The notes beneath the pieces are model-generated. The model saw nothing but the letters and a program-made list of their open reading frames with translations, was not told where the DNA came from and ran no database searches. Made by a program: the position numbers and the translations under genes. A DNA stretch of 64,000 nt from an uncultured Candidatus Saccharibacteria bacterium (GTDB taxonomy: Bacteria > Patescibacteriota > Minisyncoccia > Phycocordibacterales > DATDWN01): assembly GCA_964426735.1 (NCBI GenBank), contig CAYRRP010000001.1, positions 157,226 to 221,225 on the forward strand, given 5' to 3'. Below are positions 30,051 to 39,589 of the stretch, one piece after another. How positions within the stretch are numbered: position 1 is the first letter of the stretch; each line of letters starts with the position of its first letter.

Positions 30051-30821
30051 TTATTGTATTTCTAAAAATAATGGTAAGTGGTCTGAAACTATATCTGGTA
30101 AAACTTCAAAATTTTTTACTTCAATATCATTAGATGTCAAAATATAATCTGCAAATTTTTCTTCTTTTGGATAATGCTCACTTCGTGTAGAAGTGACTTT
30201 ATATTTCTTAACGAGGTTCACCATATCTTCCTCAAGCACAGCAATTGCATTACCATCATGTACAACATTAAAATCGCCACATAAAATATTTTTCTGTGCA
30301 CTACTTCCAAAAAATTCTTTAATCTTTTGAGACTGCTCCAGTCTTTCTGGCGTATCTTTTTTATGGGAGTTACGTTGCCATAGTCCGTGTAAATTTAAAA
30401 TAGTAAAAAATGAAGAGTCTGTATTTGCAATTTTTACCCACTGACACCGACCAGAAACAAGATCTCCACCTTTATGATACGGACTCTCCGGATGACTCCT
30501 GAAGCCACCATGATCAAGAACTTGATATTTTTTTCTTACAAAGATAACCTGCCCACAACCAACATCAGGTGACAACATCTCACCATGAAAATAGGATTCT
30601 TCTGGATCACGATATATGTAGGCATTAAAGTCACTCAAGATATTTTGTAGTTCAGAAAAAAGATTAAGCCTACCACCTTGAATGGGCGAAAATTCTGCAT
30701 CAGACCCAAACAAGCAATCTTGAAAACAAAACACATCAACATCATCTTTTTGTTTTGCGACAAATTGCATAAGAGGCTCAAACAACTTCCCTCCCCATAA
30801 GTTTAATGTGATGAGTTTCAT
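30051..30821 (-). CDS. endonuclease/exonuclease/phosphatase (EEP) family protein
   Basis: MKLITLNLWGG, LCGDFN, SDHLP motifs. Confidence 0.7.
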   Translation of the reverse strand: MKLITLNLWGGKLFEPLMQFVAKQKDDVDVFCFQDCLFGSDAEFSPIQGGRLNLFSELQNILSDFNAYIYRDPEESYFHGEMLSPDVGCGQVIFVRKKYQVLDHGGFRSHPESPYHKGGDLVSGRCQWVKIANTDSSFFTILNLHGLWQRNSHKKDTPERLEQSQKIKEFFGSSAQKNILCGDFNVVHDGNAIAVLEEDMVNLVKKYKVTSTRSEHYPKEEKFADYILTSNDIEVKNFEVLPDIVSDHLPLFLEIQ

Positions 30822-30861
30822 AATACTTATTTTCTTAAATTAATTTAAGAAAATTAATTTT

Positions 30862-32121
30862 TTATAAAAATTTTCTTAGAGATTTTCCTAATTTTTCAAT
30901 AACCCCCACAACAAGAGCATTGCCCATAATAAACGCTCTTTTTGTATCAGGAACTTTCTCACCATCAATCGTTAGTGCTGTATGGTTATCTGGAAACATA
31001 TTTAACCGCTCTAATTCTACAGGAGTAAGTCTACGTAATTTTCCGGACTTAGTTTTGATTACATGTTTAAAACGGGAAGGAGAACTTCCACCTTCACCGG
31101 TCACTATTGTTCTTGAAGGTTTATCTAATGAATCAGGAAAAATCATTGGCCCTTCAGCATAATGGTATTCAAAACCATCTTTTGATTTTCTTTCCTCTTT
31201 CTTACCTCCTTTTAGATACTCCCACTGTTTTTTATCTTTATCTTTTATGAAAAATTCTGGGGAAATTTTTGATTCATCATGAATAAGCACATCTTTGAGT
31301 AACATATGCTCACCCTCATAAACAGGTATTGTTTTTACAGTATGAACTTTTCCGTCAATCATAATACCTGTATTTTGAAAAGGACTAATTGTCGGTTTGT
31401 TGGAAGAAAAATTATCAGATATATCTTGCAAGTTTTCTCCTAGTTCAAAACTCTTTAATTCTACATCTCCTTCCTTTACTTTAAATGCGCTTGCAATGAC
31501 ACCAGTATTATAAATCCAATTACTTATATCTTTCTCTTTTTTAAGTAGATTAAAAACTTTACTACCTTTTTTATAACCTAAAATAAACACTCTTCTTCTT
31601 CTTTGAGGTAGCCCATAGTCTGCAGCATTAATTACTCGCCACTCAACAATATAACCTAACTCAGAAAGTGATGCCAACATCACGGCAAAATCTCGACCTC
31701 TTTGTTTTGCAGGTGACTTTAATAAACGATCAACGTTTTCTAGCATCAGGAAATCTGGTGCCTTTGTCTTTTTTTTCTTTAAAATATTATAAATTGACCA
31801 CCAGAGGACACCTTTTTTCCCATAAATACCTTCCGCTTGATTTAAAGTTCTTGCAACAGAATAATCTTGACAAGGAAATCCACCGACAAGCAAGTCGTGG
31901 TCTGGAATCTGTTGAAAATCTTTTTCGACGACTTCTTGAATATCTTCACAAGAGTGACCTTCCGAACCAAAGTTTCTTTTATATATTTGAGAAGCGTATT
32001 GTTTAGTGACTCCTGGCTCCCACTGACTACTCCATATAGTCTTAAATTCAGCAGTGGCTTCGAGCCCCAAACGAAAACCACCTACACCAGCAAATAACTC
32101 CACGACTCTTATTTTTTTCAT
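30862..32121 (-). CDS. DNA (cytosine-5)-methyltransferase (type II R-M, M subunit)
   Basis: motif I ELFAGVGGF, motif IV GGFPCQDYS, ENV, QRRRRVFILG. Confidence 0.9.
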   Translation of the reverse strand: MKKIRVVELFAGVGGFRLGLEATAEFKTIWSSQWEPGVTKQYASQIYKRNFGSEGHSCEDIQEVVEKDFQQIPDHDLLVGGFPCQDYSVARTLNQAEGIYGKKGVLWWSIYNILKKKKTKAPDFLMLENVDRLLKSPAKQRGRDFAVMLASLSELGYIVEWRVINAADYGLPQRRRRVFILGYKKGSKVFNLLKKEKDISNWIYNTGVIASAFKVKEGDVELKSFELGENLQDISDNFSSNKPTISPFQNTGIMIDGKVHTVKTIPVYEGEHMLLKDVLIHDESKISPEFFIKDKDKKQWEYLKGGKKEERKSKDGFEYHYAEGPMIFPDSLDKPSRTIVTGEGGSSPSRFKHVIKTKSGKLRRLTPVELERLNMFPDNHTALTIDGEKVPDTKRAFIMGNALVVGVIEKLGKSLRKFL

Positions 32122-32158
32122 ACCGCAATATTATCAGATAAATATAAGTTGATCAAGC

Positions 32159-33553
32159 TTAATCTTGTTTGTTTTCTATGGCTTGTTGAATATATTTCGC
32201 ATTAAGCCAAAAACACCGCTTCATTTCTTGAGTTTTTTGAGGTGTCTCAACTGTATCTTGTGCATTTTTACCATGCGGACGTACATGTGCAACACTACTA
32301 TCTTTAATTTTTGGTAGCTTTGTGTACTCACCATCACGTATACAGTCAATTGTTTTTTGCCATACACGTTCAGCCTCGGGAAGGTCTTTTGTTGGAAAAT
32401 TCCAAAATGTCACTTTTTTCAAAATAATATCATCGTTATTTTTTTGTTTTTGAAACACTACAAATAAAAACTTCTTTGTTTCCAATTGTAAATGAAAGTC
32501 TGACATCACTTCTTCCTCATCATCTTGCCATACTTGAGTAATTAAATCTTTGTAATCAAAGGCAGGAAACGAGATTGATTCTTTTAAAGTCCCTGTATGT
32601 TCTAAAGTAATTACTTTAAGAGTTATGTTTGCCTTATCAAACTCCTCAATTTTATCTGAATCTACATCAAGAATTCGGTTTACAATAAGTCTTTTATAGT
32701 TTTTTGCTATATTTGTAAGATTATCATCTAGATTAGAAAGTATCTCCTTATCTGTTTTGCCAATAAACCTAGAAAATCTTTCTTTAATAGTATCTTCTAT
32801 TGTTTCGATTCGTCTTTGTTTTTTAAAAATTGAATCAGTATTTGATTTATTTCCCAGTAGTTTCGTTTGAACAATATAGTTTATATATTGCTGTTTAAAA
32901 GAAAAAGCTCGTGGTTTTGCTGGTATACGTGCACCACCTGGTTGGTCTCTAACAGTACGACTATTTGCTGCTTTAGTACAAGCACCTAAATAATAAGTGT
33001 CTCCTTCTGATAACAAATGAGCTTCACCTCGTTTAATTTTAGCAACAATATACTCCCAATCTTTTTGAATTTGAAAAACGTCTTCGTTAGAAAGGTTTTC
33101 TATTAGATTAAGTAAGTGAACAAACTTAAATTTATAATCCAAAATACTTTGACTCTGCACCCACAAGTAAAACATAAGTAGCAAGGTTTTGTTTTTTTTC
33201 AAAAATGAACTACTTTCCCAAGTTTCTTTTACTATTTCATCATAGTTTATCATCGAAAACACAAGACGTTCCTTTGAAGAATACTGATTTTTAGTATGTT
33301 TTTTAAGAGGTGTAGTTTTTAACTCAACTCCAGCAATATTAAAATCTGGTTGATTTAGATTGTCATTTTTCTTACCAAAAATATAAAATTCAATTAATTG
33401 ACCAAGGAGACCTTTCTTTTTATCTTTATGTGTAAAGATTTCTTTCTCAATAGTCTCGATTTCTTCTTTGGATACAACCTCACGTAAAGATTTATTTAGT
33501 ATAATTTTCGCTTGTTCTAGAACTTGTTCTTTTGTTTGGTAATCTTTATTCAT
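32159..33553 (-). CDS. Sau3AI/MutH-family restriction endonuclease (type II R-M, R subunit; GATC-type by family)
   Basis: KGLLGQLIEFYIFG...QPDFNIAGVELKTTPLK matches MutH/Sau3AI catalytic D..E.K region; 464 aa similar to Sau3AI; adjacent C5-MTase. Confidence 0.7.
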   Translation of the reverse strand: MNKDYQTKEQVLEQAKIILNKSLREVVSKEEIETIEKEIFTHKDKKKGLLGQLIEFYIFGKKNDNLNQPDFNIAGVELKTTPLKKHTKNQYSSKERLVFSMINYDEIVKETWESSSFLKKNKTLLLMFYLWVQSQSILDYKFKFVHLLNLIENLSNEDVFQIQKDWEYIVAKIKRGEAHLLSEGDTYYLGACTKAANSRTVRDQPGGARIPAKPRAFSFKQQYINYIVQTKLLGNKSNTDSIFKKQRRIETIEDTIKERFSRFIGKTDKEILSNLDDNLTNIAKNYKRLIVNRILDVDSDKIEEFDKANITLKVITLEHTGTLKESISFPAFDYKDLITQVWQDDEEEVMSDFHLQLETKKFLFVVFQKQKNNDDIILKKVTFWNFPTKDLPEAERVWQKTIDCIRDGEYTKLPKIKDSSVAHVRPHGKNAQDTVETPQKTQEMKRCFWLNAKYIQQAIENKQD

Positions 33554-33563
33554 ACAACTTTTA

Positions 33564-34229
33564 TTATATATATGTTTTTATATCTCTAAAACCATTACTA
33601 TCTGCCGAAACAATAATATGACTAATAAGAGTAATGTCCAAAATTTTACTAGCGTATATTAATTTTTTCGTAATCTCAATATCATCATGAGATGGTTCTA
33701 AATCTCCAGAAGGGTGATTATGTGCAACGATGATTGAAGCAGCGTTGTTTTTAATAGCACCCTCAAATACTTCACGTGGATGAACCAGGCTTTCATTTAG
33801 AGTTCCAATTGAAATAATCTCTCTTTTTATTTCTTGATTTCTGCTATCTAAGTAAAAAACAACAAAATGTTCTTTCTTACTTCCTCTAATATCTTCCATC
33901 CGCTCCCAAACATCTTTTGGAGAAAGTAAGATAGAATTTTGCTTACCTTTTAGAATACGCTTTCCGAGTTCAAAACATGCCAGTATCTCACAAGCTTTAA
34001 CAACACCTAATCCATGAATCTTTTTTAACTCATCAATAGTAACATCTAAAATTCTTTCTCCTTCAAACTCTTTTAGAATTTTTTGAGATAGTTTTAAAAC
34101 ATTTAAATCTTTTGTGCCAGTACGAAGTAAGATTGCCAAGAGTTCTGAATCAGATAATTTCCCTGGACCATATTTTTCCAACTTTTCCCTTGGTCTATCT
34201 AATTTAGGAATGTCTTTGATTTTTAGCAT
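33564..34229 (-). CDS. radC: RadC-like JAB-domain protein
   Basis: HNHPSGDLEPSHDD JAMM motif, N-terminal HhH. Confidence 0.85.
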   Translation of the reverse strand: MLKIKDIPKLDRPREKLEKYGPGKLSDSELLAILLRTGTKDLNVLKLSQKILKEFEGERILDVTIDELKKIHGLGVVKACEILACFELGKRILKGKQNSILLSPKDVWERMEDIRGSKKEHFVVFYLDSRNQEIKREIISIGTLNESLVHPREVFEGAIKNNAASIIVAHNHPSGDLEPSHDDIEITKKLIYASKILDITLISHIIVSADSNGFRDIKTYI

Positions 34230-34252
34230 ATTTTAAATCCTATTTATAAGTA

Positions 34253-34747
34253 TTAAAATTTAGCAGAACTTCTTACTTTTGCTTCAAAAATTTTAACAAC
34301 TTTTTCTTTCGGACAAATTCTTATGTTATAAGGTATTTTGTACTTCTTACTACATGGGACGCAAATCCATTTATTAACTTCTTCATCTAAAACATAATCA
34401 CATTTTTGACAATAAGGACCTCCCACCCATATCTTTCTATCTTTAAAATTTTTATCAAAACCAAGAAATACATGCCAGTTAACTTTGTACAACTCTTTAA
34501 CACCATAATCATTTAAAATATTTTTTGGTTTTTTGTCGTTAAATAAGCGAGGTTTTAATTTAAATCGTTTATTTAAATTAAAAAAAATAATAACCAGTAC
34601 TGTTAGTAATAAAACTAACCATACAGGGACAGAATATTTAATCACCGTTCTAACACCATCCTTTAACCAGGATACTATTATTACACTAAAAACCCCAAAA
34701 ATAATTTTCCAATGATCATATACAATTGAAAAAAAATTTCTATCCAT
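34253..34747 (-). CDS. hypothetical membrane protein with C-terminal zinc-ribbon (CxxC...CxxC)
   Basis: two TM helices then CQKCDYV...CVPCSKK. Confidence 0.4.
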   Translation of the reverse strand: MDRNFFSIVYDHWKIIFGVFSVIIVSWLKDGVRTVIKYSVPVWLVLLLTVLVIIFFNLNKRFKLKPRLFNDKKPKNILNDYGVKELYKVNWHVFLGFDKNFKDRKIWVGGPYCQKCDYVLDEEVNKWICVPCSKKYKIPYNIRICPKEKVVKIFEAKVRSSAKF

Positions 34748-34754
34748 GGTTAGC

Positions 34755-34994
34755 TTATTTAATTCTCAAAAGAATTTGACGTAAGAAGGACTCTAAATTA
34801 TTAATTTTATTTTCTAAGTTTTCTATTTTTTTTTCAACTTTTCCAATCTGTGCACCTGAATTAAAGTACTCCAACACACCCACAGGGTTTTTACAAATTG
34901 AACATTGAACAAAAAATAGCTTATAATTTGAACCAATCGGCACCTGCTCTACTAATTCAAACGAAAAACTTTTACAGTGTGCACATTTTGACAT
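34755..34994 (-). CDS. small zinc-ribbon plus coiled-coil protein (79 aa)
   Basis: CAHCKS...CSICKN then heptad-like KKIENLENKINNLESFL. Confidence 0.4.
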   Translation of the reverse strand: MSKCAHCKSFSFELVEQVPIGSNYKLFFVQCSICKNPVGVLEYFNSGAQIGKVEKKIENLENKINNLESFLRQILLRIK

Positions 34995-35099: not shown

Positions 35100-35978
35100 A
35101 TGGAGAAAGTGATGGTCAGCAAAGATACTTACGGACTTGGTCCAGTCAATGGACATGCTGTGGGGCGAATTCTGAAGGAGGCTGTACGGAGAGCCACTGT
35201 GGCTATCCGCAATGAACGCCTCATGTTTGAGGCTCACACGAAGAAAAGTTACAGTGGCACCATGGATGATGTATTCACCAGTGCCGACACCAAGGCTCAA
35301 GAGATTTATCTCCGAACCTTTCGTGAATGCTTCCCTTTCTGTGGCGTGATTGGTGAGGAAAATTCACTCATCATCAAACCCAAGAAAGAGTGCTCGGTAT
35401 ACTTTACCGTCGACCCGCTCGATGGAACAAAAGCCTTCATCCGGCGTCAGTCCGATGGTGTGGGTACAATGGTGGCAATGGTGCACAAAGGGAAAGTCAT
35501 CTCTGCGTATGTCGGCGACATCAACACTGAAGAGGTCTACGGCTACCGCCCTGGATCTAACAAGGTACATCGGATTACCCGCCTCGACACCTTTGAAAAA
35601 CTGAGTGATACGGGTAAGGGTGACTTGAGCAAGACGTACGCCTTGCTCCGTGATCCGATCGATCAGTACTCATCCACCACCAGAAACACGCTCGGTCAGT
35701 TCAAGAATTACGAGGTGACAGGTTCGAGCATCGGCATCTGGATGGCAAAACTCTGGAAAGGAGAGGTCGGCGCTTTATTTCTGAAGCCTGGCTGGGAAAC
35801 GCCCTGGGATTCGACGCCGATTATCGGGATTTCTTTGAAGCTTGGATACGTGTTCCTTAGGCCGACAACAAAAGGCTCTTGGAAAAAGTACAACCCTGTC
35901 CTCCCGATGGAAAAATACCGTCGGGAACATGACACCATGGTCGTCCACAAACACGACTTGAAGTTCCTAGGTCTTTAA
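35100..35978 (+). CDS. inositol monophosphatase / CysQ-family phosphatase
   Basis: FTVDPLDGTKAFI and WDSTPIIGI motifs; GC about 50%. Confidence 0.7.
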   Translation: MEKVMVSKDTYGLGPVNGHAVGRILKEAVRRATVAIRNERLMFEAHTKKSYSGTMDDVFTSADTKAQEIYLRTFRECFPFCGVIGEENSLIIKPKKECSVYFTVDPLDGTKAFIRRQSDGVGTMVAMVHKGKVISAYVGDINTEEVYGYRPGSNKVHRITRLDTFEKLSDTGKGDLSKTYALLRDPIDQYSSTTRNTLGQFKNYEVTGSSIGIWMAKLWKGEVGALFLKPGWETPWDSTPIIGISLKLGYVFLRPTTKGSWKKYNPVLPMEKYRREHDTMVVHKHDLKFLGL

Positions 35979-35985
35979 TGTTCCG

Positions 35986-36017
35986 AAATGACCCGCACTT
36001 GTTGCGGGTCATTTTTA
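35986..36017 (+). terminator. rho-independent terminator after IMPase gene
   Basis: GACCCGCActtgtTGCGGGTC plus ATTTTTAT. Confidence 0.55.
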
Positions 36018-36020
36018 TCC

Positions 36021-36068
36021 TTTACACCCCCTTTTAAATATGATTAATTTATGAGGAGATTGTTCTTA
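36021..36068 (+). promoter_or_regulatory. promoter (TTTACA-N16-ATTAAT) plus 33-bp 5'-UTR segment AAATATGATTAATTTATGAGGAGATTGTTCTTA, exactly repeated at 37381-37413
   Basis: exact 33-bp repeat and same -35 geometry read in sequence. Confidence 0.5.
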
Positions 36069-36094
36069 AAATTCACAGCGAGAAAAAGGATGGC

Positions 36095-36646
36095 GTGACA
36101 ATGACATTCGATACTTACAAAACAGTTGTTCGAGAAAATTCTGGCTTTAGAGAAGTGGTGGAAGCGCTTGCAGGCCACTTTGCACTGGAGGTACCTGGAG
36201 GTTTTCCCACCCTTACGAATTGGTTTAGTCGCCACTATGTAGCATGGTCAACAACCTTCATTCACCAGAGTTACGATGATGTGCCCGCATCAGAAAACTG
36301 GACGGACTCACTATGTTTTCTTTCATTGATCGATCTAATGAAAAGCATAGGCACAGTGGCTCATCGTATAACTGAAGAGGAAAATGATCCCGTCTCATTA
36401 TTCAAGGGTGTCATCAGACGTTCCGAGAAGGGTTGTTTTCTTTACTTCCAGAACATTTTCACGGTGAAGCGCACCGAAACTAATAGTTACCATATAACCA
36501 TCCATAAGTACCCATCGGAGTTTTTTCACTTCATTGTTATGGATGATTCTGAGCTTCTCAGCTTCGTCGTCCGCAACCAGATAATGATTAATGGCGTCCA
36601 ACTGGAACTTCCGCCAGAAGCACACCTCAGTGACTTTACCGACTAA
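36095..36646 (+). CDS. hypothetical protein P1 (183 aa; GTG start), first of three tandem genes of similar size
   Basis: own promoter and palindromic terminator (36656-36693); shares NW(F/V)..R and C-terminal INGV.L motifs with neighbours. Confidence 0.5.
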   Translation: MTMTFDTYKTVVRENSGFREVVEALAGHFALEVPGGFPTLTNWFSRHYVAWSTTFIHQSYDDVPASENWTDSLCFLSLIDLMKSIGTVAHRITEEENDPVSLFKGVIRRSEKGCFLYFQNIFTVKRTETNSYHITIHKYPSEFFHFIVMDDSELLSFVVRNQIMINGVQLELPPEAHLSDFTD

Positions 36647-36655
36647 GATCCCCTA

Positions 36656-36693
36656 CCCCCGACCGATACATATCGGTCGGGGGTTGATTTTTT
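36656..36693 (+). terminator. terminator CCCCCGACCGATAcaTATCGGTCGGGGG plus T-run; diverged copy after P3
   Basis: read in sequence. Confidence 0.6.
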
Positions 36694-36750
36694 AATAAAG
36701 GAATGGTTTAGTGTATATCGAGAAGTTCATTTTTTGGAGGAATAAAACAA

Positions 36751-37317
36751 ATGGATGTGAGAGATTTTCGGGTCATGACTCAAAGACATGCCCCATGGTT
36801 GCTCAATTGGGTTGCATCTCGAACAGGTCAATTTAGACTGCGTACTGAAACAACCAAGTTTTTCGAAGCACTAATTGCGCCAAAAGTTAAAGCTATCATT
36901 GAAAAACCATGGCAGACTTTGGACATTAACGAAAATCCTTCCCCGCAAATCAAAGGTAGTTCATATGGAGACATCTTCATTCGACACTACTACACAGTAA
37001 TATGGAGAAAAAACGACGAGGACACAGTCCAGCATACCGGTGCAGTTGATCTTGCTGATCTTAATGTCGACAAACTTTTGATGCGTATGTTTGACGATTG
37101 CCAGCAAAATGACACTCTGTGGGTTATGGCGGTTGTGAAGACGGTTTATGAAATTAACAAAACCCGTCTTCTTGAACCGAAACACACATTTGTGATATAT
37201 CCTTGCGAAGAACGCAATTTCATGTCTTGGGTCGATCAACACAAGGAGTCGATCAATCAAACCCTCGCTCAACGACAACTCACGCTTTCGAGCTACAGTG
37301 TCGTGGCTCTCAGGTAG
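36751..37317 (+). CDS. hypothetical protein P2 (188 aa)
   Basis: GGAGG SD; terminator 37325-37362; weak shared motifs with P1/P3. Confidence 0.5.
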   Translation: MDVRDFRVMTQRHAPWLLNWVASRTGQFRLRTETTKFFEALIAPKVKAIIEKPWQTLDINENPSPQIKGSSYGDIFIRHYYTVIWRKNDEDTVQHTGAVDLADLNVDKLLMRMFDDCQQNDTLWVMAVVKTVYEINKTRLLEPKHTFVIYPCEERNFMSWVDQHKESINQTLAQRQLTLSSYSVVALR

Positions 37318-37324
37318 CAACAAA

Positions 37325-37362
37325 ACACCCCATCCGAGCTTCCGGATGGGGTGTAGTTTTTT
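37325..37362 (+). terminator. terminator ACACCCCATCCGagcttcCGGATGGGGTGT plus T6
   Basis: read in sequence. Confidence 0.6.
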
Positions 37363-37365
37363 ACC

Positions 37366-37413
37366 TTTACACTCAACACTAAATATGATTAATTTATGAG
37401 GAGATTGTTCTTA
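37366..37413 (+). promoter_or_regulatory. second copy of promoter/5'-UTR module (TTTACA-N16-ATTAAT plus identical 33 bp)
   Basis: read in sequence. Confidence 0.5.
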
Positions 37414-37426
37414 CGAAAGGTGTCTT

Positions 37427-37987
37427 GTGATAATAAATTTTTTTGAAGAATTTCCTGATGAGATCAAAGCATGGGTGAGGAGAGTTGTTTTGCAGATTGT
37501 GCGTTATTATAACAGCACACAACGACAATCAGAAGATACTCTGGACGTAGAAAAGTTTTTTAAACATTATCTGGAAACTTCCACATTTCAAAAAAGCTCC
37601 ACTTTCCCATCACCTATCAACGGAAGAAGAAATGCTTTTTTTCTTTTGTGGCAAGATGCTTCATGTAGTCATCCTACCCTTACACATAGCTTAATCCCTG
37701 GGACTACCTTATTTGCAGGAGATGAACCTCATAAGCTAGTACTGGATATCGCAGAGCACTGCTTGAGAGCCAACACTTCTGCTCACTTTATTGCGGTTAT
37801 ACATGTCGTATATCATCGCAACAGACAAAGCTACAACCATAACATCGATGTACATCTGCACACCGATGAGTATTATCACGAAGTACTCAGACACAACCCT
37901 GACCTGGCACGGAAACTCACAAATAGAGGCACACTCATCAATGGGGTACCCTTGAGGATTCCACAGAGACAAACTAACTCAATTTGA
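37427..37987 (+). CDS. hypothetical protein P3 (186 aa; GTG start)
   Basis: shares promoter module, terminator type and C-terminal LINGVPL motif with P1. Confidence 0.5.
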   Translation: MIINFFEEFPDEIKAWVRRVVLQIVRYYNSTQRQSEDTLDVEKFFKHYLETSTFQKSSTFPSPINGRRNAFFLLWQDASCSHPTLTHSLIPGTTLFAGDEPHKLVLDIAEHCLRANTSAHFIAVIHVVYHRNRQSYNHNIDVHLHTDEYYHEVLRHNPDLARKLTNRGTLINGVPLRIPQRQTNSI

Positions 37988-38029
37988 CCCCTTGGCCGAA
38001 TAATATCGGTCGGGGGTTGATTTTTTATC

Positions 38030-38578
38030 TCATTTCCCTTTCAATTTCTCCACCTCCTCTACCAGTTTTTTGAGTGTGTTTTGAATCATATCGAGATCAA
38101 TCTCTTTCTGCTTTTCTGCTTTCTGCTGCATAGTATCTGTGTCTTTTTCAATCTCATCGACATCAGTCTGGATTTCTTCGATATCTTCAGAAATTTCATC
38201 GACATCTTCCTGGATCACATCAATATCCTTTTCGATACCTTCAACATCTTCTTGGATTTCATCAACATTTTCCTGAATAACATCGATATCTTTTTCAATT
38301 CCCTCGACGTCTTCTTGGATTTCATCGACATCTTCTTTAATCTCTTCAATATCTTCCTCAACATCCTCCAAACTTTCTGTGTTTTGATTGACCGTCATCT
38401 GAATAAAAATAGCGAGATAGATCGCCTCAAGTGAGACAAGTGTCGTAAGGACAAGAAGTATCGTATCAAAAGCTACATCAAAGAAATACAATGAAAACAT
38501 TGCAATAAAAAAGACAGTATGAGCGACTACTGATGCTTTTGAGCCGACCCATTGTGTAAATTTTTTGTCCCAATTCAT
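38030..38578 (-). CDS. DUF1003-like membrane protein with C-terminal acidic coiled-coil tandem repeats
   Basis: N-terminal FD....LL.L..SL.A..LA..IQMT.NQ pattern like DUF1003; 22-aa repeats EDVEGIEKDIDVIQE(N/D)VDEI. Confidence 0.55.
   Translation of the reverse strand: MNWDKKFTQWVGSKASVVAHTVFFIAMFSLYFFDVAFDTILLVLTTLVSLEAIYLAIFIQMTVNQNTESLEDVEEDIEEIKEDVDEIQEDVEGIEKDIDVIQENVDEIQEDVEGIEKDIDVIQEDVDEISEDIEEIQTDVDEIEKDTDTMQQKAEKQKEIDLDMIQNTLKKLVEEVEKLKGK
38150..38346. repeat. 66-bp tandem repeats (about 3 units) inside DUF1003-like gene
   Basis: read in sequence. Confidence 0.7.
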
Positions 38579-38881: not shown

Positions 38882-39151
38882 ATGCTGTTAGGTGAGTGGG
38901 CAAAAAATTACATAGAAAATATTGTACGGGCGACACACCCGTACACACCTATTGATCCAGAAAAAATTCTCCAAGTTTTGGAGAGGATGAATTTCAACTA
39001 CGATTTTGGAGAACCTATCGACACTATCAACATTGACACTCTCAATGGTATAGGTCAAATGCTTCACACCATGACGGTTGGTGCACTACATTTATCACAC
39101 CATGAAAAGACGGGGTGTATGCACCCAGGGCTTAAACGCATAAACCTGTGA
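38882..39151 (+). CDS. hypothetical protein (89 aa)
   Basis: AGGAG SD; followed by hairpin/T-run 39165-39195. Confidence 0.4.
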   Translation: MLLGEWAKNYIENIVRATHPYTPIDPEKILQVLERMNFNYDFGEPIDTINIDTLNGIGQMLHTMTVGALHLSHHEKTGCMHPGLKRINL

Positions 39152-39244
39152 AGTATACCCTCCCAGAGGCGCCGGTATCCCCGGCGTCTTTTGTTGACAA
39201 AAAATTCAAAAAATGTTTTTTATAAGGAGGAGACAAAGAGAAAC

Positions 39245-39589
39245 ATGATAAAAGTTCGTACTTTTGAGAGAATTATTATTCTCGATATCTTAGGTTCAAC
39301 AACAGATGTTGAACTCACGAAAAAAGGCGACTTGAATGCATTACTTCGAGAAATTGATGAGTGTTACAAGCAAAACCATCGACAGATTGTTGTAAACCTT
39401 GAAGGAGTCTGCCACATCGATACTGATGCTGTCGCAACCCTTGTCACGAGACGAAGCTCACGAGAAAATCTGACTATACGCTTCTACAACATGCAACAAA
39501 AGGTGAGACATTCCCTGCGAAGTTCGGGATTTTTGACGGTCTTTCAGGTTTTCGAGTCACAGAGAGAAGCTGTACAAAGTTTCAACTAA
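39245..39589 (+). CDS. STAS-domain anti-sigma-factor antagonist (SpoIIAA-like); start ATG 39245 with AAGGAGGAG SD
   Basis: ...IVVNLEGVCHIDTDAVATLV...FYNMQQKVRHSLRSSGF pattern. Confidence 0.65.
   Translation: MIKVRTFERIIILDILGSTTDVELTKKGDLNALLREIDECYKQNHRQIVVNLEGVCHIDTDAVATLVTRRSSRENLTIRFYNMQQKVRHSLRSSGFLTVFQVFESQREAVQSFN

What the first reader, a model, noticed from the sequence alone, without database searches (positions are those of the whole stretch)
36020..38030. Triplet of separately transcribed ~185-aa unknown proteins with duplicated promoter/5'-UTR and terminator modules
Three consecutive genes of 183, 188 and 186 aa each have their own promoter and their own strong palindromic terminator. 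The first and third share an exact 33-bp upstream segment (AAATATGATTAATTTATGAGGAGATTGTTCTTA) with identical -35 TTTACA spacing, similar GAAAAGG-N6-GTG start contexts and near-identical CCCCCGACCGATA/TATCGGTCGGGGG terminators. The proteins share only short motifs (NW[FV]..R near the N-terminus, INGV.L near the C-terminus, a central [TV][VY].[RI].[RK]...YH.I..H block), consistent with fast-diverging paralogues. The block is GC-richer than its surroundings and sits between an IMPase-family gene and the AT-rich R-M island. This layout is reminiscent of immunity-protein or anti-defence gene arrays, but no family could be assigned.
Basis: partly seen in the sequence, partly recalled or inferred. 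Interest (0 to 1): 0.7.

Follow-up and report, generated by a model that had tools for sequence, protein, structure and literature searches.

The report
Variable three-gene cassette array, Saccharibacteria

Summary
Genes A (36101-36646), B (36751-37317) and C (37427-37987) each have an intrinsic terminator and a conserved promoter-like upstream region. A and C share an exact 33-nt promoter/5'UTR core and an exact 24-nt terminator half. Neither is expected by chance.

A and C are distant homologues (BLASTP 2e-6). B is only a probable remote relative. The family is tiny: 13 hits among 1.84 billion representative proteins, one of them spurious. The only relative whose record names an organism is a Candidatus Saccharibacteria MAG. 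Pfam, NCBIfam, PADLOC, PHROGs and PDB gave no significant match, and PDB and BFVD fold searches gave none.

Ten related loci show A only, B only, A+B, C-like+B and A+B+C. A strain-level relative lacks C. The A/C frame is conserved across lineages whose synonymous sites are saturated, while the ORF inside is near-random at DNA level. One genome pair shows a sharp recombination mosaic. The genes are under purifying selection (dN/dS about 0.16-0.23), but dN is 3-10 times that of neighbours.

My reading: self-contained promoter-ORF-terminator cassettes of a fast-evolving accessory protein family, reshuffled by recombination at the shared frames. An immunity or anti-defence role is untested and unsupported. 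There is no adjacent toxin, no mobile element and no viral relative. Interest is moderate to low.

The parts
35100..35978 (+). IMPase-family gene (context). It is itself present or absent among relatives and has an unusually high GC3 (0.59).
   Evidence: Pfam Inositol_P 4e-15. Present in L004, L016 and L017; absent in L006, L007, L008 and L019. GC3.
35985..36019 (+). Intrinsic terminator of the IMPase-like gene. Its T-run is the left edge of the first copy of the repeated module.
   Evidence: 13-bp stem plus T-run (I7, 4). The direct repeat D1 starts at 36012.
36012..36068 (+). Promoter/5'UTR module, copy 1. My reading: -35 TTTACA 36021-36026, 17-nt spacer, TG 36041-36042, -10 TTAATT 36044-36049, and the start of the 5'UTR (GGAGATTGTTCTTA). 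The exact 33-mer is 36036-36068.
   Evidence: The core is conserved in A/C-type cassettes of five other genomes. The promoter reading is an inference, and the consensus scan did not flag it. The IMPase-like gene and B show a similar -35/17/TGn/-10 pattern.
36101..36646 (+). Gene A, 181 aa (alternative GTG start at 36095 gives 183 aa). A-type member of the A/C clade, with a conserved C-terminal tail ...VVRNxIxINGVQLELPxEAHxxDFxD.
   Evidence: Orthologues of 39-58% identity (57% and 39% by tblastn; 37-58% by global alignment) in L006, L007, L016 and L017. No TM segment.
36655..36694 (+). Terminator module, copy 1 (ACCCCCGACCGATA/TATCGGTCGGGGGT plus a T-run). Its tail, TTGATT 36684-36689, doubles as the likely -35 of gene B.
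   Evidence: Conserved in 8 cassettes, with 87% of cells paired and mostly G.U-compatible changes.
36684..36750 (+). Promoter/5'UTR of gene B (TTGATT-17-TGg-TTTAGT, then the conserved TCGAGAAGTTCATTTT leader and a GGAGGA ribosome-binding site). It differs from the A/C module.
   Evidence: Conserved upstream of B in L004, L006, L007, L008, L013 and L020. The promoter reading is an inference.
36751..37317 (+). Gene B, 188 aa. B-type clade, next to the convergent coiled-coil gene in every relative that carries B, except where C is inserted.
   Evidence: dN/dS 0.158 against the strain-level relative L013.
37325..37362 (+). Gene B's own terminator (ACACCCCATCCG/CGGATGGGGTGT plus a T-run). The T-run is the left junction of the C cassette.
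   Evidence: (I12). The empty site in L013 reads ...GGTGTGTATTTTTTACA|TCA(stop of the coiled-coil gene).
37357..37413 (+). Promoter/5'UTR module, copy 2 (-35 TTTACA 37366-37371, -10 37389-37394). The exact 33-mer is 37381-37413.
   Evidence: 86% identical both to copy 1 and to the module of the C-like cassette in L008.
37427..37987 (+). Gene C, 186 aa, GTG start. Highly divergent member of the A/C clade (18% identity to A). Its closest relative is P0018 in L008 (29-32%), which occupies the A position there.
37989..38027 (+). Terminator module, copy 2. The three left-arm substitutions (C>T, C>T, A>G) keep pairing as G.U on the + strand transcript only.
38030..38578 (-). Convergent, highly conserved coiled-coil membrane-protein gene (context). 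It forms the right boundary of the variable locus.
   Evidence: 90-94% aa identity to relatives and dN/dS 0.02. Only coiled-coil-type Pfam hits.

Best explanation
A, B and C are real, soluble, separately transcribed proteins of one small family known so far only from Saccharibacteria-like genomes. The family has two deep clades: A/C-type and B-type. The genes lie in a strain-variable hotspot between YgjP/IMPase and a conserved convergent coiled-coil gene.

Each gene is a self-contained cassette of promoter, short 5'UTR, ORF and intrinsic terminator. The A/C-type cassette has a lineage-wide conserved frame: a TTTACA-17-TGn-TTAATT promoter plus GGAGATTGTTCTT leader on the left, and a CCCCCGACCG...CGGTCGGGGG-TTGATTTTTT terminator on the right. 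The ORF inside the frame is replaced by alleles so divergent that their DNA is near-random.

Shown:
- The frames are conserved.
- The ORFs diverge far faster than the neighbouring genes.
- All presence/absence combinations exist.
- C is missing from a strain-level relative.
- One genome pair is a recombination mosaic whose breakpoints lie in the promoter and in the 3' end of the ORF.

Inferred:
- The frames serve both as expression signals and as homology (or T-run microhomology) for recombination. Saccharibacteria are naturally competent (PMC10633639).
- Alleles are therefore swapped and cassettes added or deleted. C would be an extra A/C-class cassette added after B's terminator in this strain, not a recent copy of A.

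Function (inferred, low confidence, about 0.25-0.3): a non-enzymatic binding protein. Its conserved C-terminal tail would contact a constant partner, and its variable N-terminal and central part would track a fast-changing target, as in immunity-like, defence or host-interaction roles.
For: Repeats and terminators.

Family size and restriction: 13 hits in 1.84e9 representatives, one of them spurious. Word-based searches found only 1-3 proteins each. The single genome-contig hit is a Candidatus Saccharibacteria MAG.

Homology: A-C homology rests. P0018 bridges A and C, because it has an A-like ...FTD end.

Copy-number states:
- L004, L019, L020: B only.
- L006, L007, L016: A+B.
- L013: B with an A terminator upstream and no C.
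- L008: C-like+B.
- L017: A only, with the remnant of B's terminator.

Frame conservation: the 33-nt core matches 33/33 between window A and C and 30/33 in L008. Synonymous sites of neighbouring genes are saturated (dS 1.7-3.3).

ORF divergence:
- Window A vs C DNA is 30-45% identical inside the ORF (a shuffled control gives 30%) against about 75% at the 5' frame in the sliding-window profile and 85-86% for the repeated modules themselves.
- L016 vs L017: IMPase 3' end 83-87%, promoter 98%, ORF centre 40-50%, last ~100 nt plus terminator 100%.

Selection and protein properties:
- B has dN/dS 0.158 at dS 0.30, against 0.025 for the adjacent gene. dN is 0.30-0.46 against 0.04-0.14 for neighbours.
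- aa identity is 32-57% against 79-94% for neighbours.
- No TM or signal-like segment.
- No residue with catalytic character is conserved across the clades. Only M1, one Pro and one Trp are invariant.
- Natural competence and homologous recombination in Saccharibacteria: PMC10633639.

Against: Other weaknesses:
- B's membership of the family is not statistically established.
- Promoters are read from consensus and conservation only, and the scan tool did not flag the A or B promoters.
- Exact identity of the 33-mer could reflect purifying selection, recent duplication or gene conversion. The data do not separate these.
- Insertion of C versus its loss in six other lineages rests on parsimony, and the junctions are not clean to the nucleotide.
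- dN/dS below 1 gives no sign of positive selection at whole-gene level.
- Only about ten related loci exist, mostly short metagenomic contigs.
Confidence: 0.55

Rival explanations
1. Orphan immunity or anti-defence gene array. Each protein would neutralise a different toxin or defence/counter-defence factor, and the array grows by cassette acquisition.
For: - The proteins are small, soluble, fast-evolving and individually dispensable, and copy number varies.
- The locus is a hotspot that elsewhere takes up an R-M/RadC island (window) and lies a few kb from Fic/RhuM genes in L004 and L017.
- The repeated promoter-bearing intergenic frame resembles, from my own recollection of the literature, the rAID immunity arrays of Bacteroidales.
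Against: - No toxin-like gene adjoins the array in the loci whose flanking genes were annotated.
- No Imm, antitoxin or PADLOC model is matched.
- No recombinase, phage or plasmid genes were found, and no relatives or modules in IMG/VR.
- dN/dS is 0.16-0.23.
- The family is confined to one narrow lineage, whereas immunity families usually spread widely.
Confidence: 0.2
2. Ordinary lineage-specific ORFan paralogues under relaxed constraint. An old A-like gene duplicated with its signals, and the copies drift and are lost at random. The conserved frames would simply be good promoters and terminators kept by selection for expression, with no role in exchange.
For: - dN/dS is several-fold higher than in neighbours but below 1.
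- Each gene is missing in some lineage.
- No function is detectable.
- Conservation of the frame across lineages is enough to explain A/C frame similarity without any transfer.
Against: - The L016/L017 mosaic has 98-100% identical frame and 3' ORF around a 40-50% identical centre, on an 83-87% background. Drift cannot produce that; recombination is needed.
- The ORFs are intact in the A-, B- and C-type copies that were read.
- The A-type C-terminal 45 aa are nearly invariant.
- L008 has a C-like allele in the A slot.
Confidence: 0.2
3. Small transcription regulators or adaptors. An N-terminal three-helix bundle would bind DNA, and the conserved sequence just downstream of the -10 would be their operator, giving autoregulated paralogues.
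For: - The AF2 models begin with three helices followed by beta strands in both A and B.
- The 15-20 nt around the predicted transcription start are the best-conserved non-coding bases of the locus.
Against: - The N-terminal part is the variable part in A-types, while the proposed operator is constant.
- B has a different leader.
Confidence: 0.07
4. Degenerate FHA-like phosphopeptide-binding domain in the C-terminal half of A/C-type proteins.
For: The A/C profile gives faint hits to Rad53 FHA1 (E 0.08-0.45). The alignment matches ..VKR.. with FGR and ..ING.. with LNG.
Against: - The hits are not significant.
- Only Rad53 is hit, not the many other FHA structures.
- Pfam FHA is not hit by any member.
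- The pThr-binding Ser85, His88 and Asn107 equivalents are not kept.
- AF2 places two confident helices (139-158, pLDDT 82-90) where FHA has strands.
Confidence: 0.03

Closest known systems
Recombinase-associated acquired interbacterial defence (rAID) orphan-immunity arrays of Bacteroidales (recalled from the literature, not tested here)
   Same: Arrays of small, unrelated or very divergent ORFs. Each is preceded by a repeated intergenic sequence that carries its own promoter. Gene content varies between strains.
   Different: No tyrosine recombinase and no mobile-element context. None of the genes matches an immunity family, and there is no cognate toxin system. The array has only 1-3 genes. 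The proteins belong to one family confined to one lineage. Each cassette also carries its own terminator.
Integron gene cassettes
   Same: Modular ORF units bounded by conserved, partly palindromic sequences. They are added or lost one at a time at a fixed chromosomal site.
   Different: Integron cassettes are usually promoterless and end in attC sites recombined by IntI at attI. Here no integrase is annotated in the 27-50 kb region. The palindromes are plain GC-rich hairpins followed by T-runs, that is, intrinsic terminators. Every unit has its own promoter.
Flexible genomic islands or hotspots with allelic replacement by homologous recombination in the conserved flanks (for example capsule or O-antigen loci)
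   Same: Conserved flanks, hyperdivergent centre, mosaic breakpoints, and several alleles at one chromosomal slot.
   Different: The scale is a single 550-bp ORF, and the 'flanks' are only its promoter and terminator (about 40-60 nt). The product is a cytoplasmic protein of unknown function, not a surface structure.
Anti-defence gene islands of phages and plasmid leading regions
   Same: Small fast-evolving ORFs, some with repeated upstream promoter elements.
   Different: The location is chromosomal, between housekeeping genes and syntenic across lineages. No relatives were found in viral contigs. There are no PHROG hits.

Membership tests
Polymorphic-toxin immunity / orphan immunity arrays | Match to a known immunity or antitoxin protein family | tested here: not met
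   Pfam, NCBIfam and PADLOC gave no hit for A, B or C or for their relatives at meaningful E-values. One B member hit RelB at E 0.035.
Polymorphic-toxin immunity / orphan immunity arrays | Adjacent or nearby cognate toxin gene or toxin-delivery locus | tested here: not met
   The neighbours are an IMPase-like gene, a coiled-coil membrane protein, STAS, an M23 peptidase and GltX. Fic/RhuM genes lie about 4-7 kb away in L004 and L017 only and are absent from the window.
Polymorphic-toxin immunity / orphan immunity arrays | Protein binds and neutralises a toxin | not testable with these tools
   Needs co-expression or binding assays.
Anti-defence islands of mobile elements | Located on a phage, plasmid or integrative element | tested here: not met
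   The chromosomal context is syntenic in the four relatives with long flanks (L004, L008, L016, L017). No family member or module was found in IMG/VR. No PHROG hit.
Integron cassette array | IntI integrase with attI, and attC at each cassette end | tested here: not met
   No integrase or recombinase domain among the annotated genes from 27 to 50 kb. The cassette-end palindromes are GC-rich stems followed directly by T-runs.
Intrinsic (Rho-independent) terminators | GC-rich hairpin followed by a T-run directly after the stop codon, with pairing kept in relatives | tested here: met
   Stems of 11-13 bp plus T-runs follow A, B, C and the IMPase-like gene. For the A/C terminator, 87% of cells pair in 8 sequences against 27-59% when the register is slid. 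Changes are mostly G.U-compatible on the + strand, with one compensatory change. The 3' arm is almost invariant, so the shuffle control is uninformative.
Sigma-70-type promoter with extended -10 | -35 hexamer, 17-nt spacer, TGn, -10 hexamer, conserved in orthologous positions | tested here: inconclusive
   TTTACA-17-TGA-TTAATT lies upstream of A and C, and the T.TACA, TG and ATTTAT columns are invariant in 7 cassettes. The -10 matches TATAAT in only 3 of 6 positions, and the consensus scan reported a different pairing for copy 2 and nothing for copy 1. There are no transcript data.
One protein family comprising A, B and C | Significant pairwise or profile similarity | tested here: inconclusive
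   Met for A-C: BLASTP 2e-6 and hhalign 1.3e-4. Not significant for B vs A/C: E 0.012-0.12. Among 457 local ORFs, the best non-B hit of the B HMM is C, and B-type ORFs rank 3rd-4th for the A/C HMM.
FHA domain | Conserved Gly-Arg, Ser-x-x-His and Asn-Gly residues, and an 11-strand beta-sandwich | tested here: not met
   Only the Arg and the final NG align. Ser, His and Asn are not kept. There is no Pfam FHA hit. The AF2 model is helical in that segment.

The most novel reading that the evidence does not exclude
The conserved promoter and terminator frames form a recombinase-independent, transformation-driven cassette system. In naturally competent Saccharibacteria, about 40-60 nt of shared regulatory sequence on each side of an ORF would be enough to swap, add or delete alleles of a hypervariable specificity protein, for example immunity against toxins of rival epibionts, phage or host factors. 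This would be a minimal functional analogue of integron or rAID arrays.
Probability: 0.15. Interest if true: 0.7.

Novelty: new variant of a known kind. Interest (0 to 1): 0.35.

Why it matters
Saccharibacteria are obligate epibionts with tiny genomes, so accessory genes that are kept yet turned over quickly are good candidates for strain-specific interactions with hosts, phages or competitors. This locus offers a compact, well-delimited example: a 1-3 gene array with conserved expression frames and swapped ORFs. Cultivated, transformable relatives could be used to test it if they carry the family.

If the frames really mediate exchange, homologous or microhomology recombination at promoter/terminator-sized sequences would be able to do the work of dedicated cassette recombinases. 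If not, this is simply one more lineage-restricted family of unknown function in a variable hotspot.

Tried and rejected
- **Family assignment.** Pfam, NCBIfam, PADLOC and PHROGs were scanned with the single proteins, and Pfam was also scanned member by member for the two family alignments. Nothing consistent emerged. The hits PH_alsin 0.014, RelB 0.035 and similar are noise.
- **Structure.**
  - afdb50 was not available.
  - The model of B was too weak to search (pLDDT 56).
- **PDB sequence profiles.** B gave nothing. A/C gave faint Rad53-FHA1 hits, rejected on residue conservation, lack of other FHA hits and a conflicting predicted secondary structure.
- **Wider relatives.**
  - The protein-pattern scan of JGI metagenome contigs found nothing.
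  - A DNA scan for the terminator module found four chance hits in unrelated GC-rich or unrelated contexts.
  - Viral contigs were negative for both modules and both protein clades.
- **RNA elements.** Rfam at gathering thresholds and tRNA scans of the window found nothing. I looked by eye for an anti-SD pairing between the conserved TTGTTCTT leader and the ribosome-binding site. It is not consistent across cassettes, so I dropped it.
- **Module origin.** C's promoter module is 86% identical both to A's and to L008's. Its 5' part is slightly closer to other lineages and its 3' part is identical to A. The numbers are too small to call a copy of the resident A module, an import or gene conversion.
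- **Literature.** A search for a described hypervariable Saccharibacteria locus of this kind found nothing relevant.


Full report
**1. What is in the sequence.**

The region holds three same-strand ORFs:
- A, 36095/36101-36646
- B, 36751-37317
- C, 37427-37987

Upstream lies an IMPase-family gene, 35100-35978 (Pfam Inositol_P 4e-15). Downstream lies a convergent coiled-coil membrane-protein gene, 38030-38578.

The repeat finder reports two direct repeats:
- a 57-nt repeat, 36012-36068 vs 37357-37413, 86% identical
- a 39-nt repeat, 36656-36694 vs 37989-38027, 85% identical

None is expected in shuffles, even with three mismatches allowed.

Hairpin-plus-T-run terminators follow the IMPase-like gene, A, B and C. 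Eleven were found in 4 kb against 2.9 expected. B has its own, unrelated terminator and upstream region.

Three details need correcting:
- A most likely starts at ATG 36101, giving 181 aa. That is the deposited gene call, and it matches the orthologue N-termini.
- The R-M island (30.05-35.0 kb: EEP nuclease, C5 methylase, Sau3AI/MutH-like endonuclease, RadC) lies upstream of the IMPase-like gene, so the triplet is not between the two.
- The block's bulk GC (0.42) is only slightly above the window mean (0.39). Its GC3 (0.36-0.46) does exceed that of core genes (0.27-0.31).

**2. Are the three proteins related?**

A and C are distant homologues. BLASTP gives E 2e-6 at 18% identity, and the A-family profile against C gives 1.3e-4.

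B is not significantly similar to either:
- E 0.012 to C, and nothing to A
- Profile-profile E 0.045-0.12

Some weaker evidence points to a relationship. A joint alignment is collinear over the full length. Among 457 local ORFs, the best non-B hit of a B-type HMM is C, and B-type ORFs rank third and fourth for the A/C HMM. The AF2 models of A (pLDDT 69, pTM 0.65) and B (pLDDT 56) show the same order of helices and strands. Both models were built from the same six-sequence alignment, so this is not independent evidence.

I treat B as a probable remote paralogue. None of the proteins has a hydrophobic segment.

**3. How widespread is the family?**

- Word-indexed searches of 5.8 billion proteins found only the query itself for C, one relative for A and two for B.
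- A full HMMER profile search of 1.84 billion cluster representatives found 13 proteins, one of them a spurious repeat protein.
- The one hit in 185,579 species genomes is a Candidatus Saccharibacteria MAG.
- Metagenome and viral collections gave no relatives and only chance matches to the DNA modules.

**4. Comparative anatomy of the locus.**

Ten related loci were recovered:

| Locus | Content |
|---|---|
| L004 | IMPase, B, coiled-coil gene |
| L006, L007 | YgjP, A, B, coiled-coil gene |
| L016 | IMPase, A, B, coiled-coil gene |
| L017 | IMPase, A, remnant of B's end plus terminator, coiled-coil gene |
| L008 | YgjP, degenerate promoter, C-like gene (P0018), B, coiled-coil gene |
| L019, L020 | B only, behind a promoter that fuses an IMPase-type -35 to B's own -10 and leader |
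| L013/L014 | A terminator, B, coiled-coil gene, with no C |

L013/L014 is a strain-level relative: B is 91% identical at protein level and dS is 0.30.

So every combination exists, each gene is dispensable in some lineage, and C after B is unique to the window strain. The empty site in L013 reads TTTTTTACA followed directly by the stop codon of the coiled-coil gene. In the window the C cassette sits between B's T-run and that stop codon, and it ends in its own T-run. Six other lineages (L004, L006, L007, L008, L013, L016) have B directly followed by the coiled-coil gene, so parsimony favours insertion in the window lineage. The junctions are not clean to the nucleotide.

Independent k=31 assemblies from the source samples break exactly at the 33-nt repeat. 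They are consistent with the A-B-C order.

**5. Conserved frames, hyperdivergent ORFs.**

The A/C promoter/5'UTR core is conserved well beyond this genome:
- identical between window A and window C
- 30/33 in L008
- 26/33 in L007
- similar in L016 and L017

Left-arm changes keep pairing through G.U or a compensatory change.

This conservation holds between genomes whose neighbouring genes have saturated synonymous sites (dS 1.7-3.3) and 76-84% nucleotide identity.

Inside the frame the picture reverses. Window A vs C DNA is 30-45% identical, and a shuffled control gives 30%. L008 carries a C-like allele in the slot where other genomes carry A, within the same frame. P0018 bridges A and C, because it has an A-like ...FTD terminus.

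The clearest case is L016 vs L017:

| Segment | Nucleotide identity |
|---|---|
| IMPase 3' end | 83-87% |
| Promoter module | 98% |
| ORF centre | 40-50% |
| Last ~100 nt of the ORF plus terminator | 100% |

This is a recombination mosaic. Deletions that fuse promoter modules (L019, L020), a tandem degenerate module (L008) and a stranded terminator (L017) show that rearrangements use these short regulatory sequences as breakpoints.

**6. Selection.**

| Comparison | dN/dS or dN |
|---|---|
| B, window vs L013 | dN/dS 0.158 (dS 0.295) |
| Adjacent coiled-coil gene, same pair | dN/dS 0.025 |
| A and B, deeper comparisons | dN 0.30-0.46 |
| Neighbouring genes, deeper comparisons | dN 0.04-0.14 |

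Amino-acid identities are 32-57% for A, B and C against 79-94% for neighbours.

The genes are therefore real and constrained, but much less so than their neighbours. Whole-gene dN/dS gives no sign of positive selection. In A-types the last ~45 residues are almost invariant, while the N-terminal two-thirds vary. Across all clades only the initiator Met, one Pro and one Trp are invariant. That argues against a shared catalytic site.

**7. Interpretation.**

What is shown: three monocistronic cassettes of a lineage-restricted, fast-evolving family lie in a strain-variable hotspot. The A/C class has a conserved expression frame and exchangeable ORF content.

What is inferred:
- The frame reads as an extended -10 promoter, TTTACA-17-TGn-TTAATT. 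A similar -35/17/TGn/-10 pattern appears upstream of B and the IMPase-like gene, but there are no transcript data.
- The frames double as recombination substrates. This is plausible because Saccharibacteria are naturally competent and integrate DNA by homologous recombination (PMC10633639).

The protein function is unknown. My best guess, at about 0.25-0.3, is a non-enzymatic binding protein. Its constant C-terminal tail would contact a conserved partner, and its variable part would follow a changing target, as in an immunity-like, defence or host-interaction role.

No defining feature of those systems was met in the tests available.

**8. Verdict.**

The system is best filed as a new, small, lineage-specific gene family organised as promoter-ORF-terminator cassettes in a plasticity hotspot. 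It resembles integron or rAID-style arrays in layout but lacks their machinery. It is of interest mainly to people working on Saccharibacteria genome dynamics, so I score it moderate to low.

Noticed in passing
window 30051-34994: AT-rich island (26-35% GC, GC3 about 0.2). It holds an EEP-family nuclease, a C5 DNA methylase, a Sau3AI/MutH-like type II endonuclease (PADLOC REase_II 2e-81), RadC, a 164-aa membrane protein and a 79-aa protein matching phrog_9414. The island is absent from this position (between the YgjP gene and the IMPase gene or cassette array) in L004, L008 and L017, so it is a strain-specific insertion into the same hotspot.
   Followed up: partly
window 35100-35978, and L004, L016, L017: The IMPase-like gene has GC3 0.59 (core genes 0.27-0.31). 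It is itself present or absent among relatives. It is 90% identical to the L004 copy, with lower dS (1.06) than its neighbours (1.7-2.2), which suggests separate or more recent exchange.
   Followed up: partly
L016 1-1110 vs L017 7506-8620: Sharp recombination mosaic in the A cassette. The promoter is 98% identical and the last ~100 nt of the ORF plus the terminator are 100% identical. The ORF centre is only 40-50% identical, and the background is 83-87%. The proteins P0009 and P0013 share their last 33 residues exactly.
   Followed up: yes
L013 684-760: A roughly 72-nt insert with inverted-repeat ends (TTTCGAC...GTCGAAA) lies between the stop codon of B and B's terminator in the strain-level relative. 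The window lacks it. It may be a miniature palindromic element.
   Followed up: no
L008 9160-9235: A degenerate copy of the L006/L007-type promoter module sits in tandem with, and just upstream of, the window-type module that drives the C-like gene. It looks like a scar of earlier cassette turnover.
   Followed up: partly
L017 8555-8630; L019 130-200; L020 500-576: B has been deleted in L017, leaving its last few codons and terminator. In L019 and L020, B is driven by a hybrid of the IMPase-type -35 region (CTTGCA..TATAAAATATGGT) and B's own -10 and leader. This indicates deletions between promoter modules.
   Followed up: partly
window 38030-38578 (-): The convergent 182-aa protein has N-terminal hydrophobic segments and tandem acidic repeats of about 21 aa (EDVEGIEKDIDVIQENVDEIQ...). 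It is 90-94% conserved across lineages (dN/dS 0.02). Its repeats cause an N-gap in the L017 assembly. Its many Pfam and PADLOC hits are coiled-coil noise.
   Followed up: partly
window 38882-39589: The 89-aa ORF and the STAS-domain gene downstream of the coiled-coil gene also diverge quickly (25-38% identity to L004, against about 80-90% for M23, GltX and MurG). The variable zone therefore extends beyond the triplet.
   Followed up: no
window 36051-36098 and 37396-37446: The conserved module contains an ATG (TTTATGAGG) that opens short upstream ORFs of about 15 codons, in a different frame from A and C. These are probably meaningless if transcription starts downstream of it, as the promoter reading implies.
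   Followed up: no
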